From Escherichia coli (GTDB taxonomy: Bacteria; Pseudomonadota; Gammaproteobacteria; Enterobacterales; Enterobacteriaceae), in the NCBI RefSeq assembly GCF_003334385.1, contig NZ_QOWN01000003.1: DNA of 64,000 nt; one strand, written 5' to 3'. Positions 13,300 to 63,596 of the stretch are shown here, in pieces. A program made the translations under genes and the position numbers. The notes below the pieces were generated by a model, which was not told where the DNA came from, searched no databases, and saw nothing but the letters and a program-made list of their open reading frames with translations. Position 1 is the stretch's first letter. Each line of letters begins with the position of its first letter.

Positions 13300-13436
13300 C
13301 GTGTAATGGCTGCATGAAATAAACAATAAAATATAAATAACATTATCAGCCTGCTGACGGCTTGAAGAGAGTCACAGTATCTTGTGCAACATTATTGGAA
13401 AGAGTGAGGGGCGAGGTAGCGAAGCGGAAAAATGTT

Positions 13437-13542
13437 AAAAAAAAGCCCATCGTGGGAGATGGGCAAAGACTACACACAGCAATTCGTTGTTTCACTCAGG
13501 GGATTTCCATGCTTATAAATCAATATGTTGATTTATAACCGT
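13437..13542 (-). ncRNA. rprA: RprA small regulatory RNA (RpoS translational activator)
   Basis: Reverse complement reads ACGGTTATAAATCAACATATTGATTTATAAGCATGGAAATCCCC...CCCATCTCCCACGATGGGC followed by a T-run (terminator hairpin); matches RprA as recalled, between ydiL and ydiK. Confidence 0.85.
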
Positions 13543-18980: not shown

Positions 18981-19149
18981 TCCTGACTTAATGCCGCAAG
19001 TTCGCCAAATCGACCTGGATTAACCTCCGTCCAGGTTCGATGACCTTCTTAATACTGCTTATCTACCGCCTGATATTGTTCAAAAATAATACTAATCGCA
19101 GTTTGTGTTAAAACGGCGGGTTAGCTTTATGAGATTATTCTTATCGCCC

Positions 19150-19246
19150 CTTCAAGAGCTAAGCCACTGAGAGTGCCGGAGATAAGCGCCGGATGGGGTA
19201 GAAACCCTTAAGCCTGTGTCGCACAGACTTAAGGGTTTTCTTATTT
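19150..19246 (+). ncRNA. putative small RNA or terminator structure in the ydiH-sufA spacer (position consistent with RydB)
   Basis: Long imperfect hairpin AAACCCTTAAG...CTTAAGGGTTT (19202-19238) followed by a T-rich tract on the plus strand, about 220 nt from the ydiH stop. The boundaries are approximate, and the strand is inferred only from the terminator. Confidence 0.3.
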
Positions 19247-37321: not shown

Positions 37322-37398
37322 TGGTGCGTCCGAGTGGACTCGAACCACCGACCCCCACCATGTCAAGGTGGTGCTCTAACCAACTGAGCTACGGACGC
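37322..37398 (-). tRNA. valW: tRNA-Val (GAC)
   Basis: Reverse complement reads GCGTCCGTAGCTCAGTTGGTTAGAGCACCACCTTGACATGGTGGGGGTCGGTGGTTCGAGTCCACTCGGACGCACCA: cloverleaf-compatible, GAC anticodon, 3' CCA. Confidence 0.93.
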
Positions 37399-37402
37399 AG
37401 GA

Positions 37403-37479
37403 TGGTGCGTTCAATTGGACTCGAACCAACGACCCCCACCATGTCAAGGTGGTGCTCTAACCAACTGAGCTATGAACGC
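37403..37479 (-). tRNA. valV: tRNA-Val (GAC)
   Basis: Reverse complement reads GCGTTCATAGCTCAGTTGGTTAGAGCACCACCTTGACATGGTGGGGGTCGTTGGTTCGAGTCCAATTGAACGCACCA; tandem copy 4 nt from valW. Confidence 0.93.
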
Positions 37480-39083: not shown

Positions 39084-40478
<1,395 letters not shown>

Positions 40479-41352: not shown

Positions 41353-42501
41353 TTAGCGAGCCACTCGAAGGCCGTTTTCAACACCGCGTGAGAACACGAC
41401 CTGCCAGAGCTGAATATCACGGGCGCGGAAAGCACCTGCACAGGCATTCAGATAATAGGTAAACATTCGTTTAAAGCGTTCACTATAGTTATCCGCAATT
41501 TCTGGCCATGCGGCGAGGAATCGTTCATACCACGCCATCAACGTAGTATCGTAATCAGCACCGAAGTTATGCCAGTCTTCCATCACAAAGTGGGGTTCGC
41601 TGGACTGAGCAATCTGGCGTACAGAGGGCAGGCAACCGTTCGGAAAAATATATTTATTAATCCAGGGATCAACATTCAGATCGGTTTTTTTCGAACCGAT
41701 AGTATGGAGCAGGAATATGCCTTCCGGTTTCAAATTACGATCCACCACCGCAAAATAGGTATCGTAATTTTTCGGTCCGACGTGCTCGAACATCCCCACA
41801 GAAACAATACGATCAAACTGGTCGTTCAGGTCACGATAATCTTGCAGCAAAATGGTGACATCCAGGCCTTCACAGCGTTCCTGAGCCATTTTTTGCTGTT
41901 CGGCAGAAATGGTGACGCCCACCACGCTTACGTCATAATTAGATGCCATGTAGTGTGCCAGTCCGCCCCAGCCGCAGCCAATATCCAGTACGCGCATCCC
42001 TGGTTTTAACTGCAATTTTTCACAAATCATTTTGAGCTTCGCCTGCTGGGCAGATTCCAGATTATCGGCATCTTTCCAGTAAGCGCAGGAATATTGCATG
42101 AAGGGATCAAGCATGCGGCTGAACAAGTCATTACCCAAATCGTAATGCTCTTTGCCGACTATCCAGGCACGTTTTTTACTCTGCAGATTGAAGAGACGAG
42201 CGCCGGCAATACGCAGCGTGTCTTTGAAATGATGGGGGAGTTGGTTCTCGAGACCTGCGCGTAAGACTTTGCTAAAAAACATATCCAGTCGGTCACATTC
42301 CCACCAGCCATCCATATAACTTTCGCCTAACCCCAAAGAGCCTTCTTGCAGAACGCGTTTAAAAAAATCGGGGTTTTTCACACGAATATCCGCCGGGGCA
42401 GAACCGTTAATGGCTATACCGGCACGGCTAAGTAATTCGTTGGCGATACGGTACCAGTTGTCATCCGGTACACTGACTTCTTCTATACACGATGAACTCA
42501 T
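41353..42501 (-). CDS. cfa: cyclopropane-fatty-acyl-phospholipid synthase
   Basis: 382-aa ORF with SAM-binding motif VLDIGCGWGGLA. Confidence 0.93.
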   Translation of the reverse strand: MSSSCIEEVSVPDDNWYRIANELLSRAGIAINGSAPADIRVKNPDFFKRVLQEGSLGLGESYMDGWWECDRLDMFFSKVLRAGLENQLPHHFKDTLRIAGARLFNLQSKKRAWIVGKEHYDLGNDLFSRMLDPFMQYSCAYWKDADNLESAQQAKLKMICEKLQLKPGMRVLDIGCGWGGLAHYMASNYDVSVVGVTISAEQQKMAQERCEGLDVTILLQDYRDLNDQFDRIVSVGMFEHVGPKNYDTYFAVVDRNLKPEGIFLLHTIGSKKTDLNVDPWINKYIFPNGCLPSVRQIAQSSEPHFVMEDWHNFGADYDTTLMAWYERFLAAWPEIADNYSERFKRMFTYYLNACAGAFRARDIQLWQVVFSRGVENGLRVAR

Positions 42502-42791
42502 AGTTTCTCCATCACTGGTCGGTGATCAGAACCTTAAAACAGCGTAGACGCTTTTTGGGCTTTGTGAGAAATCTCGCAGAAAAAACCGCGAGTCTATAAT
42601 CCGACGTAGAACAGAGGGAAAGGAGGAACCCTTGCCGAAATGACTATCCATAGTGAGTCGGGAACGATCCTGTCCCCGTAAAAACATAATATTTATCGTA
42701 GCTTTAACAACTCGAAATTAGTATAGGCCGCTAATTTCAATCATACAACAAAATTTTGTTAGCAGCCTAAGTATAAGTATATCGATATAGA

Positions 42792-44003
42792 TCAGTGTGA
42801 TTCGCTATGAGCGACTTCGGCATTGCCATGATTCTGGCAGCCAACTTCTTCACAACGTTGCATCATGTAACCCAGCGCGACCAGCACTACTGTTGATAAC
42901 ATCACGCTGGTGGTGGTGAGCAATGGCGTGCTGATACTGATCAGCCAGGAAACTACCAGACTTGCGAGGAAGCACAGACCCAGTTGAAGAGTGTTCTGCA
43001 ACGCTGCGGCGCGACCAGTTGCGTGTGGGAAGGGACGCAGCGCCTGGGCGACAACAATAGGGTAGATCGCGCCATTGGCAATCGCCATCACACAGAATGG
43101 GATCAGGATTTCGACCAGCGACACATGGCTAATGAAGCCCGCAGCCCAGGTCGCAATGACGCTGACAGCAAACAGCACCAGCAACCACGGTAATAACTGC
43201 TTGCCTTGCCATTTCTGCAGCGCGGCGCGACAGCCATAACCACCAATCAGAAACGCGATAGTTTGCGGGACATAACTTAAACCAATAACTGCCGGGCTGT
43301 AGCCCATTTCACTAAGGATGAACGGTGAACCGGTCAGCCATGCAAAAAAACTGGCTGAACAGGCTGCGTATATCAGCACGTTGCCGCGATAGGTTTTAGA
43401 ACGTAGCAGGTCGGTAAAGGTCAGACCATCCTGACTATTGTTACGGGCCTTCGTCGTGGGTTTGAGCCAGAAAATAGGCAGAATCAGCACCACGGTAATG
43501 GCAAACAGGGTGGCGAAAATCGCCTGCCAGGAAAAATGGACCAGCAGCCAGCTTCCTAACAGAGGAGCCAGTGCCGGAGATAGACCCACCAGCGGCATGA
43601 TGGTCGCAAAAATACGGTTAACTTTCTGTGAAGGATAATAATCTGTCACTAATGCTTGCCAGATAACCGCCGCGGCGCAGACACCCACAGCCTGTACAAA
43701 ACGCAATACCAGCAGCGTAGCGGCGTTTTCTACCCACAGCATCCCCAGACTACCTAACGCAAAAATTGTCAGGCCGATTAATAATACCGGTTTACGACCA
43801 TAACGGTCGGAGAGCGGCCCCCACAGAAGCTGGGCTGCGGCAAAACCGGCAAGGAACAGACTAAGGCTGGCACTGACAGCAGACGCAGGCGTTTGCAGGT
43901 CGGCCTGTATGGCGGCGAAAGCAGGCAGATACATATCGGTTGCCAGAAAACCGAGTACGCTCAAACCCGCCAGCCAGACTAAAAATCTTTTCCCAGGTTG
44001 CAT
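42792..44003 (-). CDS. ydhC: MFS exporter (reported purine nucleoside exporter PunC)
   Basis: 403-aa polytopic ORF, divergent from the LysR regulator ydhB. Confidence 0.82.
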
Positions 44004-46070: not shown

Positions 46071-46114
46071 TCCATTTCACTCCAGACCCTAACTTCAGCT
46101 CCTGCAAAATCGCA

Positions 46115-46130
46115 AGGTAAACGTTTGCCT
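46115..46130. promoter_or_regulatory. PUR-box-like operator in the purR leader
   Basis: AGGTAAACGTTTGCCT matches the PurR operator consensus ACGCAAACGTTTGCGT at 13 of 16 positions, about 45-60 bp upstream of the purR start codon. Confidence 0.5.
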
Positions 46131-46368
46131 TTACACACCTTACGCACAACAAAAGTGTTGCGGTACGCCGGAAAAACGACACGGAGCGTCAGGAAGGGGT
46201 CAATGGCCAGTACGCAAATAGTGTAAGCGTGGAATTTTGGCCGATCTTGACGAAAAGGGGAAGTGGTAAAAACACTTATCATTATAAATGACGGGAGATT
46301 TTTTCATCACAGTGTGTAAAAATGCGTAATATCACTTTTTGTGTGGTAATAAAAAAGGAGAAAACTTG

Positions 46369-46458
46369 ATGAGCACCGACCTTAAATTTTCACTGGTAAC
46401 AACGATTATCGTCCTCGGTTTGATCGTAGCCGTGGGTTTGACTGCCGCGCTGCACTGA
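46369..46458 (+). CDS. ynhF: 29-aa single-TM small membrane protein
   Basis: Not in the ORF track. ATG at 46369 preceded by Shine-Dalgarno AAGGAG (46355-46360); encodes MSTDLKFSLVTTIIVLGLIVAVGLTAALH; a stem-loop follows the stop. Matches the small protein YnhF as recalled. Confidence 0.6.
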   Translation: MSTDLKFSLVTTIIVLGLIVAVGLTAALH

Positions 46459-46623
46459 TTTCCTCTCGAGGGAGCGCGTTCTCCCTCGCATCTCCTTCCT
46501 GTTTGTTAGCAAAATGGCAAAAGTGTTTTCTCTTTTTGTTATTTTCATTTTTTTGTGATTGCTGTCATGCTTTCGCCACTTTAATGAATATCGCGTAATG
46601 ACGCGAAGAGGTGGAGATAAGGC

Positions 46624-62961: not shown

Positions 62962-63161
62962 AAAGTAGATTCCTTTACGACCGAATATATTGCGTTAGAT
63001 TAATAAATATTCTTTAAGTGCGAAAAATTTACGCGCAATTTCTGAAAAATATGTCTGACGGTAACCAAATGCAGCAATACATTTGTTTTAGCAATACAAT
63101 TGCTGCACACTATTCTAAAAGCCGCATAATATCTTAGCAAGCTAATTATAAGGAGATGAAA

Positions 63162-63596
63162 TTGGAATCGCCACTAGGTTCTGATCTGGCACGGTTGGTG
63201 CGCATATGGCGTGCTCTGATAGACCATCGCCTGAAACCGCTGGAGTTAACACAAACCCATTGGGTTACGTTACACAATATCCATCAGTTACCTCCAGACC
63301 AGTCGCAAATTCAACTGGCAAAAGCGATTGGCATCGAGCAGCCATCACTGGTCCGTACTCTGGACCAACTGGAAGAAAAAGGGTTAATTTCGCGTCAAAC
63401 TTGTGCCAGCGATCGTCGGGCTAAACGTATTAAACTGACGGAAAAGGCAGAGCCGCTGATCAGCGAAATGGAAGCTGTTATTAACAAAACCCGCGCGGAA
63501 ATATTACATGGCATCTCCGCAGAGGAACTGGAGCAACTGATTACGCTCATCGCAAAACTTGAGCATAATATCATTGAGTTACAGGCCAAAGGGTGA
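63162..63596 (+). CDS. slyA: MarR-family transcriptional regulator SlyA
   Basis: ORF track starts at ATG 63156, which directly abuts the Shine-Dalgarno AAGGAG; the TTG at 63162 ([16 protein letters not shown]...) has normal spacing and gives 144 aa. Confidence 0.88.

What the first reader, a model, noticed from the sequence alone, without database searches (positions are those of the whole stretch)
42502..42791. Long untranslated interval upstream of cfa, likely a regulatory 5' leader
About 290 bp separate the cfa start (42501, minus strand) from the upstream ydhC stop. cfa is known to be transcribed from sigma70 and sigmaS promoters with a long 5' UTR targeted by small RNAs, and this interval would house those elements. 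Exact promoter and sRNA pairing sites were not assignable by eye.
Basis: established knowledge. Interest (0 to 1): 0.25.

Follow-up and report, generated by a model that had tools for sequence, protein, structure and literature searches.

The report
Known cfa promoter and leader region
This 290-base gap is the already well-studied control region of the E. coli cyclopropane fatty acid synthase gene (two promoters and a 212-base mRNA leader acted on by small RNAs, Rho and RNase E), so it is real but ordinary; the one unreported item is a conserved SlyA-type palindrome just upstream of the distal promoter.

Summary
The DNA is 100% identical to E. coli K-12.

The published landmarks all fall on matching sequence:
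- sigma-70 TSS1 at -212 (42713), behind an invariant TATACT
- sigmaS TSS2 at -34 (42535), behind TCTACGCT
- RNase E site GG|AUUAU at 42601/42600
- CU-rich Rho-utilisation tract at 42628..42613
- stem-loop at 42636..42617

An accessibility-aware pairing scan recovered the published RydC, ArrS and CpxQ sites without prior information.

In 80 Enterobacteriaceae these elements are conserved. Two further hairpins, 42678..42659 and 42592..42573, show compensatory changes. There is no Rfam family, no conserved upstream ORF and no punC terminator.

Refinements: only 212 of the 290 nt are leader, the sigmaS promoter sits inside that leader, and current work puts sRNA-modulated Rho termination ahead of RNase E protection.

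One thing I found in no searched paper: an invariant palindrome, TTAG-N3-GCTAA (42770..42759), 46-57 bp upstream of TSS1. It matches the SlyA consensus, and slyA with its own operator lies in the same window. Binding is untested.

Verdict: already known, low interest.

The parts
42792..42794 (-). punC (ydhC) stop codon TGA; upstream boundary of the interval
42759..42770 (.). Conserved palindrome TTAGGCTGCTAA (TTAGCAGCCTAA on the + strand), at -57..-46 from TSS1. SlyA/MarR-type operator candidate; binding untested.
   Evidence: TTAG-N4-CTAA is exact in 77 of 80 species and has one mismatch in the other 3, at a fixed 43-45 nt from the -10. It occurs 3 times in the 64-kb window against 0.43 expected. 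It matches the SlyA consensus TTAGCAAGCTAA (PMC5797941) at 10 of 12 positions. As RNA it folds at only -1.1 kcal/mol.
42743..42748 (-). P1 (sigma-70) -35 hexamer TTGTAT, 17-nt spacer
   Evidence: Read. Other species have TTGAAT (46), TTGTAT (11), TTGAAA (10) or TTGAAC (8) at the same place. With 3 of 6 matches to consensus it is missed by the scan.
42720..42725 (-). P1 -10 hexamer TATACT
   Evidence: TATACT in 74 and TATAGT in 3 of the 77 loci scored; 99% identity across 76 non-Escherichia species. It sits at -12..-7 from the published TSS1.
42713..42713 (-). TSS1 (G), start of the long mRNA isoform, -212 from the ATG
   Evidence: Position taken from PMC6755755 (primer extension and citation of earlier mapping) and mapped onto. 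Not measured here.
42502..42713 (-). 212-nt long 5' leader of cfa mRNA
42662..42696 (-). Published Hfq-binding region (-195..-161), A-rich ACGAUAAAUAUUAUG motif
   Evidence: PMC6755755; nearly invariant A residues in alignment A1
42659..42678 (-). Hairpin A: CGGGGAC-AGGAUC-GUUCCCG (+36..+55)
   Evidence: -11.2 kcal/mol, z = -3.0. All 5 consensus pairs show changes on both sides. A published 3' end at +59 lies 4 nt downstream.
42630..42636 (-). CpxQ pairing core (GGCAAGG, +78..+84); 5' arm of the rut-sequestering stem
   Evidence: De novo scan: CpxQ nt 5-11 pair here, with 14 of 300 shuffled leaders scoring as well. The published G-135C compensatory mutation is at 42636.
42617..42636 (-). Stem-loop C (+78..+97) that sequesters the CU-rich tract
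   Evidence: PMC12691595. Recovered by RNAalifold but conserved in sequence only. Weak: -6.3 kcal/mol, z = -1.06.
42613..42628 (-). 16-nt CU-rich tract UUCCUCCUUUCCCUCU (+86..+101), core of the Rho-utilisation (rut) site
   Evidence: PMC12691595; sequence read; conserved
42600..42610 (-). RydC seed-pairing site UCUACGUCGGA (-109..-99); RNase E cleavage GG|AUUAU between 42601 and 42600
   Evidence: Scan: RydC nt 3-13, hybrid energy -17.7 kcal/mol, with 5 of 300 shuffled leaders as good. Most columns are invariant across 81 sequences. Cleavage site from PMC6755755.
42596..42605 (-). ArrS pairing site, overlapping the RydC site
   Evidence: Scan: ArrS nt 1-10, -12.8 kcal/mol, with 6 of 300 shuffled leaders as good. 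Published as overlapping the RydC site.
42573..42592 (-). Hairpin D: CUCGCGG-UUUUUU-CUGCGAG (+122..+141)
   Evidence: -11.1 kcal/mol, z = -4.3. 4 of 7 pairs show compensatory changes. It lies in the +118..+138 stretch needed for Rho dependence.
42565..42570 (-). P2 -35-like hexamer TTCTCA (inferred), 18-nt spacer
   Evidence: Read from the sequence. The surrounding 42572..42549 is 88% identical to E. coli in 76 species.
42541..42548 (-). P2 (sigmaS) extended -10 TCTACGCT
   Evidence: 97% identity across 76 species. Lies 6 nt upstream of the published TSS2. The resemblance to the sigmaS -10 consensus is from my own knowledge.
42535..42535 (-). TSS2 (A), start of the short 34-nt-leader isoform
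   Evidence: PMC6755755, mapped onto. Not measured here.
42502..42534 (-). Short-leader hairpin E: AUCAC/GUGAU core plus UCU:AGA pairing that partly covers the Shine-Dalgarno GGAG (42510..42507)
   Evidence: RNAalifold helix 6 is 99% paired but has no compensatory change. -7.9 kcal/mol, z = -1.2. Arms are 91-94% identical to E. coli and the loop 38%.
42499..42501 (-). cfa start codon ATG

Best explanation

Shown elsewhere, with positions verified here:
- A constitutive sigma-70 promoter, P1, starts at 42713 and makes an mRNA with a 212-nt leader.
- A stationary-phase sigmaS promoter, P2, lies inside that leader. It starts at 42535 and makes a 34-nt leader that escapes all leader-based control.
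- On the long isoform, a CU-rich tract (42628..42613) plus downstream sequence forms a Rho-utilisation site. This causes premature termination.
- A weak stem-loop (42636..42617) hides part of that tract.
- CpxQ pairs with the 5' arm of the stem, exposes the tract and increases termination. This is repression.
- RydC and ArrS pair just downstream (42610..42596), over an RNase E site (42601|42600). They block Rho, and to a lesser degree RNase E. This is activation.
- Hfq binds the A-rich 5' part of the leader.

Inferred here:
- Two further conserved hairpins, A and D, are structural parts of the leader. Hairpin A probably protects the 5' fragment whose 3' end is reported at +59. Hairpin D lies in the stretch needed for Rho dependence.
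- The invariant palindrome at -57..-46 of P1 is a protein-binding site, most likely for SlyA.
For: - Identity: 100% match to MG1655, flanked by punC and cfa.
- Published coordinates land on matching bases: G at -212, A at -34, GG|AUUAU at -100/-99, G at -135, G78-G79-C80, and the 16-nt CU tract at +86..+101.
- Independent recovery of the sRNA sites by a windowed, accessibility-corrected duplex scan: RydC 42610..42600, ArrS 42605..42596, CpxQ 42636..42630. Only 5, 6 and 14 of 300 shuffled leaders scored as well.
- Conservation in 76 non-Escherichia species: P1 -10 99%, P2 -10 97%, RydC/ArrS site 84%, short-leader arms 91-94%. The punC-proximal spacer is 33%.
- Structure: over the consensus structure, 0 of 500 shuffles reach the observed covariation. 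Hairpin A has 5 of 5 and hairpin D 4 of 7 pairs with changes on both sides. Their local stabilities are z = -3.0 and z = -4.3.
Against: - No transcription start, Rho event or sRNA effect was measured here. Those steps rest on the cited papers.
- The consensus scan finds no sigma-70 promoter and no terminator in 42300..43000. P1 has only 3 of 6 matches in its -35, and P2 is sigmaS-type.
- The whole leader folds no better than shuffles (z = -0.36).
- Stem-loop C, the long-range helix and the anti-SD hairpin have no compensatory changes, so comparison neither proves nor disproves them.
- The paper's RydC C4 / cfa G-101 pair is offset by 1 nt from the pairing I derive using the RefSeq RydC 5' end.
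Confidence: 0.95

Rival explanations
1. RNase E-protection-only model: the leader works purely through mRNA stability. RydC and ArrS mask the GG|AUUAU cleavage site, CpxQ exposes it, and transcription elongation is not involved.
For: The cleavage site is present and overlaps the RydC and ArrS pairing sites. This was the published model in 2013-2019 (PMC6755755).
Against: PMC12691595 reports three things. ArrS activation and CpxQ repression are abolished, and RydC activation strongly diminished, in rho-R66S. Regulation persists in rne131. The CU tract is required. That tract is strongly conserved.
Confidence: 0.15
2. The leader is a metabolite- or temperature-sensing cis-regulatory RNA, such as a riboswitch or an RNA thermometer acting through the SD-covering hairpin E.
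For: The arms of a hairpin that partly covers the Shine-Dalgarno sequence are highly conserved while its loop is variable. Hairpins A and D covary.
Against: No Rfam family matches, even at E <= 1. Hairpin E is weak (-7.9 kcal/mol, z = -1.2) and has no compensatory change. The whole-leader z-score is -0.36. The conserved 5' arm also overlaps the start region of P2.
Confidence: 0.05
3. The interval encodes a small protein or leader peptide, the 53-aa ORF 42526..42687 on the minus strand, that controls cfa by attenuation.
For: The ORF exists in E. coli.
Against: The longest ATG-ORF in the leader ranges from 4 to 58 aa across 80 species (median 27.5). Indels break the frame, and the internal ATG is ACG in many species.
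Confidence: 0.02
4. The distal part of the interval is simply the punC 3' UTR and terminator, and the conserved palindrome is an RNA hairpin that ends punC transcription.
For: The palindrome lies 21 nt after the punC stop codon, and punC-cfa synteny holds in 80 of 80 species.
Against: No terminator-like site was found. As RNA the palindrome folds at -1.1 kcal/mol, z = 0.17. Its arms are invariant rather than covarying, and its distance to the P1 -10 is fixed at 43-45 nt.
Confidence: 0.05

Closest known systems
E. coli / Salmonella cfa P1-P2 promoters and 212-nt sRNA/Rho/RNase E-regulated leader (PMC6755755, PMC11340327, PMC12691595, and the earlier work they cite)
   Same: Identical sequence and identical positions for every published landmark.
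   Different: Nothing differs; this is that locus. Hairpins A and D and the upstream palindrome are not discussed in the passages I read.
rpoS long 5' leader (activating sRNAs that also counteract Rho); comparison from my own knowledge
   Same: A long leader on a stress gene, Hfq-dependent activating sRNAs, and sRNA interference with premature Rho termination.
   Different: The rpoS sRNAs mainly open a hairpin that blocks the ribosome-binding site. At cfa the sRNAs act more than 90 nt upstream of the ribosome-binding site on a rut site, and one sRNA (CpxQ) increases termination.
SlyA operator of the slyA promoter, TTAGCAAGCTAA (window 63134..63145)
   Same: A 12-bp palindrome with the same TTAG...GCTAA arms. 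All 9 invariant positions of the cfa box agree with the consensus.
   Different: The central bases differ, giving 10 of 12 matches in E. coli. It lies upstream of the -35 rather than over the start site. No binding or regulation data exist, and cfa is absent from the SlyA regulon text of PMC5797941.

Membership tests
cfa long 5' leader with P1/P2 promoters | Lies directly upstream of a cfa orthologue, downstream of punC/ydhC | tested here: met
cfa long 5' leader with P1/P2 promoters | Sigma-70 -10 placed for a start at -212, and a sigmaS-type -10 placed for a start at -34 | tested here: met
   TATACT at 42725..42720 and TCTACGCT at 42548..42541, 99% and 97% conserved
cfa long 5' leader with P1/P2 promoters | Transcription actually starts at those two positions | not testable with these tools
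   Taken from primer extension in PMC6755755
cfa long 5' leader with P1/P2 promoters | Complementarity to the RydC, ArrS and CpxQ seeds at the published sites, with the GG|AUUAU RNase E site | tested here: met
cfa long 5' leader with P1/P2 promoters | CU-rich rut tract at +86..+101 and sequestering stem at +78..+97 | tested here: met
   Sequence present and stem recovered by RNAalifold. Covariation is uninformative because the pairs do not vary on both sides.
cfa long 5' leader with P1/P2 promoters | Rho- and sRNA-dependent regulation in vivo | not testable with these tools
   PMC12691595
Curated cis-regulatory RNA family (riboswitch, leader or thermometer in Rfam) | Match to an Rfam covariance model | tested here: not met
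   No hit in the interval at E <= 1 or at gathering thresholds
Leader-peptide attenuator | Conserved short ORF in the leader | tested here: not met
Intrinsic terminator of punC | GC-rich hairpin followed by a U tract | tested here: not met
SlyA (MarR-family) operator | 12-bp palindrome resembling TTAGCAAGCTAA / TTA-N6-TAA | tested here: met
   10 of 12 matches in E. coli and 12 of 12 (TTAGCTTGCTAA) in 10 species. The 9 invariant positions all agree with the consensus.
SlyA (MarR-family) operator | SlyA protein binds the site | not testable with these tools
   No EMSA, footprint or ChIP data found
SlyA (MarR-family) operator | cfa P1 activity changes with slyA | not testable with these tools
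   cfa is not mentioned in the main text of the E. coli SlyA regulon paper PMC5797941. This is weak evidence against strong control.
PunR (LysR) operator | 23-bp motif TsttwTCAAwAwwwTTGaaGGCA | tested here: not met
   The motif is unrelated to the box, and its site lies between punR and punC

The most novel reading that the evidence does not exclude
The invariant palindrome TTAG-N3-GCTAA at -57..-46 of cfa P1 (42770..42759) may be a functional SlyA operator conserved across Enterobacteriaceae. That would make cfa an ancestral, so far unreported SlyA target, and it would add a transcriptional input, through SlyA's small-molecule sensing, to a promoter regarded as constitutive.

A lesser possibility concerns the covarying hairpins A and D. 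They may be functional parts of the Rho/sRNA switch, acting as a 3'-end protector and as a pause or termination element.
Probability: 0.35. Interest if true: 0.4.

Novelty: already known. Interest (0 to 1): 0.15.

Why it matters
The cfa leader is a model for how several small RNAs tune membrane lipid cyclopropanation, and with it acid and envelope-stress resistance. They act on Rho termination and RNase E decay within a long 5' UTR. Finding it here adds nothing new; it only confirms the annotation.

The conserved SlyA-type box would matter modestly if real. It would link a MarR-family regulator encoded 20 kb away to the supposedly constitutive cfa promoter.

Tried and rejected
- Unrestricted RNAduplex of whole sRNAs against the leader gave long, non-specific duplexes no better than shuffles. 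I replaced it with a 16x16-nt windowed scan with accessibility penalties.
- The consensus promoter/terminator scan found nothing. This is uninformative, because P1 has a weak -35 and P2 is sigmaS-type.
- Rfam gave no family.
- Whole-leader and short-leader minimum free energies are not below shuffles, so single-sequence thermodynamics carries no signal.
- The search for homologous proteins with Cfa listed only relatives at 86% identity or above, all Enterobacteriaceae. I could not extend the comparison to Yersiniaceae, Erwiniaceae or Pectobacteriaceae.
- Supplement look-ups in two SlyA papers found no mention of cfa.
- The hexamers proposed for the ydhC>cfa spacer in PMC3946193, CTAACA-17-TGAAAT, are rejected. 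That -10 is not conserved and does not fit the mapped start, whereas TATACT is invariant.
- PdhR is rejected for the box. Its reported site lies inside the punC ORF (43415..43431), not in the interval.
- PunR is rejected for the box because its motif is unrelated.
- FNR/CRP, FabR, FadR and marbox motifs were considered from memory and do not fit the invariant positions.

Full report
**Observation.** On the minus strand, the cfa ORF runs 42501..41353. Its ATG is at 42501..42499 and is preceded by GGAG at 42510..42507. The upstream ORF runs 44003..42792 and ends with TGA at 42794..42792. The interval 42502..42791 is therefore exactly 290 nt.

A 501-nt query across the interval is 100% identical to E. 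coli K-12 MG1655. It is found in 5425 of 5426 complete E. coli genomes, always between punC (formerly ydhC) and cfa. In NC_000913.3 the gap is 1741123..1741412, and RefSeq annotates nothing in it.

**Mapping of published features.** I used the conversions -n from the ATG = 42501+n, and +n from TSS1 = 42714-n. Every landmark reported for the cfa control region then falls on the expected base.
- The sigma-70 start at -212 is G 42713.
- The sigmaS start at -34 is A 42535.
- The RNase E cut, GG|AUUAU between G-100 and A-99, is 42601|42600.
- G-135, used for the CpxQ compensatory mutation, is G 42636.
- G78, G79 and C80 of the regulatory stem are 42636..42634.
- The 16-nt CU-rich tract at +86..+101 is UUCCUCCUUUCCCUCU at 42628..42613.
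- The Hfq region at -195..-161 is 42696..42662.

The sources are PMC6755755 and PMC12691595.

P1 reads TTGTAT-17 nt-TATACT (42748..42743 and 42725..42720), with the -10 at -12..-7. P2 has TCTACGCT at 42548..42541, and a -35-like TTCTCA lies 18 nt upstream.

The simple consensus scan reports no promoter or terminator. This is expected, because P1 has only 3 of 6 matches in its -35 and P2 is sigmaS-type.

**Independent test of sRNA pairing.** I took RydC, CpxQ, ArrS and GadF from the annotated K-12 genome. An unrestricted duplex search was useless. A 16x16-nt windowed scan with accessibility penalties on both partners put the best site of each sRNA where the papers place it.
- RydC nt 3-13 pair with 42610..42600. 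Hybrid energy is -17.7 kcal/mol and the total after penalties is -12.3 kcal/mol.
- ArrS nt 1-10 pair with 42605..42596 (hybrid -12.8 kcal/mol).
- CpxQ nt 5-11 pair with 42636..42630.
- GadF had no convincing site.

Against 300 dinucleotide-shuffled leaders, the 5' seeds scored as well in 5 (RydC), 6 (ArrS) and 14 (CpxQ) cases.

One discrepancy remains. The paper pairs RydC C4 with cfa G-101. With the RefSeq RydC 5' end, I get C5:G-101. This is a 1-nt numbering difference.

**Comparative evidence.** A scan of one genome per species returned 80 Enterobacteriaceae loci, from Escherichia to Cedecea, Klebsiella and Kosakonia. All 80 have punC upstream of cfa.

Identity to E. coli in the 76 non-Escherichia species is very uneven:

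| Segment | Identity |
|---|---|
| punC stop to palindrome | 33% |
| P1 -10 | 99% |
| P1 -35 | 81% |
| RydC/ArrS site | 84% (most columns invariant) |
| Region upstream of P2 | 88% |
| P2 -10 | 97% |
| Short-leader hairpin arms | 91-94% |
| Short-leader hairpin loop | 38% |

RNAalifold and explicit pair counts give 98.2% paired cells. None of 500 column shuffles reaches the observed covariation.
- Hairpin A (42678..42659) has changes on both sides in 5 of 5 consensus pairs. Locally it is stable, at -11.2 kcal/mol and z = -3.0.
- Hairpin D (42592..42573) has such changes in 4 of 7 pairs. It folds at -11.1 kcal/mol with z = -4.3.
- The published rut-sequestering stem is conserved in sequence but shows no compensatory change.
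- The same holds for a possible long-range helix, CCAYG (42653..42649) with CGUCGG (42606..42601).
- It also holds for the hairpin that partly covers the Shine-Dalgarno sequence.

These last three are therefore compatible with the data but not proven by comparison.

The whole leader folds no better than shuffles (z = -0.36).

**Alternatives excluded.**
- No Rfam family matches.
- The 53-aa ORF in the E. coli leader is not conserved.
- No punC terminator is present.

**Mechanism.** P1 gives a long isoform that Rho terminates prematurely. This needs the CU tract and sequence out to about +138. CpxQ opens the sequestering stem and increases termination. RydC and ArrS bind just 3' of the tract and reduce termination, and they also cover the RNase E site. 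P2 gives a short isoform that none of these factors touch (PMC6755755, PMC12691595). Upstream inputs to RydC, namely YieP, FnrS and OmrB, are described in PMC11340327. All of these steps were shown by others. What I verified is that the sequence determinants are present, correctly placed and conserved.

**An element I did not find described.** Between the punC stop and P1 lies TTAGGCTGCTAA (42770..42759), at -57..-46 from TSS1.
- TTAG-N4-CTAA is exact in 77 of 80 species. The other three have a single mismatch.
- Position 8 is G in 76 of 77, the three central bases vary freely, and the distance to the -10 is fixed at 43-45 nt.
- The pattern occurs three times in the 64-kb window against 0.43 expected. 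One of the other two is TTAGCAAGCTAA at 63134..63145, immediately upstream of slyA (63156..63596). That is the canonical SlyA operator and consensus (PMC5797941).
- The cfa box matches that consensus at 10 of 12 positions in E. coli and at 12 of 12 in 10 species (TTAGCTTGCTAA). This is better than every other site listed in Table 3 of that paper, which score 6-8 of 12 by my count.
- As RNA it is unstable (-1.1 kcal/mol). Its arms are invariant rather than covarying, which points to protein recognition.

Searches for SlyA together with cfa or cyclopropane fatty acid, and for a cfa promoter regulator, found nothing relevant. cfa is absent from the main text of the E. coli SlyA regulon study, which weighs against strong control under those conditions. 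PunR and PdhR are excluded as binders. This remains a hypothesis.

**Verdict.** The feature is already known in detail. Interest is low apart from the untested SlyA-type box and the two covarying hairpins.

Noticed in passing
window 42759..42770: Invariant palindrome TTAG-N3-GCTAA at -57..-46 of cfa P1. It is exact in 77 of 80 Enterobacteriaceae and has one mismatch in the other 3, and it matches the SlyA consensus TTAGCAAGCTAA. No paper linking SlyA and cfa was found.
   Followed up: partly
window 63134..63145 and 63156..63596: The slyA gene and its canonical autoregulatory operator TTAGCAAGCTAA lie in the same window, about 20 kb from cfa.
   Followed up: partly
window 39608..39619: The third TTAG-N4-CTAA match in the window, TTAGTGAACTAA, lies inside the mdtK (ydhE) coding region. 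It is probably a chance match.
   Followed up: no
window 42659..42678: Hairpin A in the long leader has compensatory changes in all 5 consensus pairs. A published cfa 3' end at +59 (42655) lies 4 nt downstream, which suggests a hairpin-protected 5' UTR fragment.
   Followed up: partly
window 42573..42592: Hairpin D (7-bp stem, U6 loop) has compensatory changes in 4 of 7 pairs and is followed by AUUUCUCA. That tail has 4 T in 8 nt, one short of the terminator rule. The hairpin lies in the +118..+138 stretch reported as necessary for Rho dependence.
   Followed up: partly
window 42649..42653 with 42601..42606: RNAalifold pairs the conserved CCAYG box with CGUCGG inside the RydC site. The U/C variation on one side keeps G.U or G-C pairing. 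If real, this helix would enclose the rut stem-loop and mask the RydC and RNase E sites.
   Followed up: partly
window 42778..42789: A perfect AT-rich 12-nt palindrome, TATATCGATATA, lies 3 nt after the punC stop codon. Among the 20 sequences displayed it appears only in E. coli and E. albertii.
   Followed up: no
window 42747..42760: A perfect 14-nt palindrome, AACAAAATTTTGTT, bridges the SlyA-like box and the P1 -35. In other species only AACA...GTT is kept. It may be A/T-rich UP-element-like DNA.
   Followed up: no
window 43415..43431: TAAAGGTCAGACCATCC inside the punC ORF is the reverse complement of the PdhR gSELEX/EMSA site reported for ydhC in PMC7660256.
   Followed up: no
window 42526..42687 (minus strand): A 53-aa ORF lies within the cfa leader. 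It is not conserved: frame-breaking indels occur and the longest leader ORF ranges from 4 to 58 aa across species.
   Followed up: yes
window 46071..46461, 13435..13542, 19146..19206, 37322..37479: Rfam and ARAGORN hits elsewhere in the window: STnc550 upstream of purR, RprA, RydB, and two tRNA-Val(GAC) genes overlapped by an HPnc0260 antisense-model hit.
   Followed up: no
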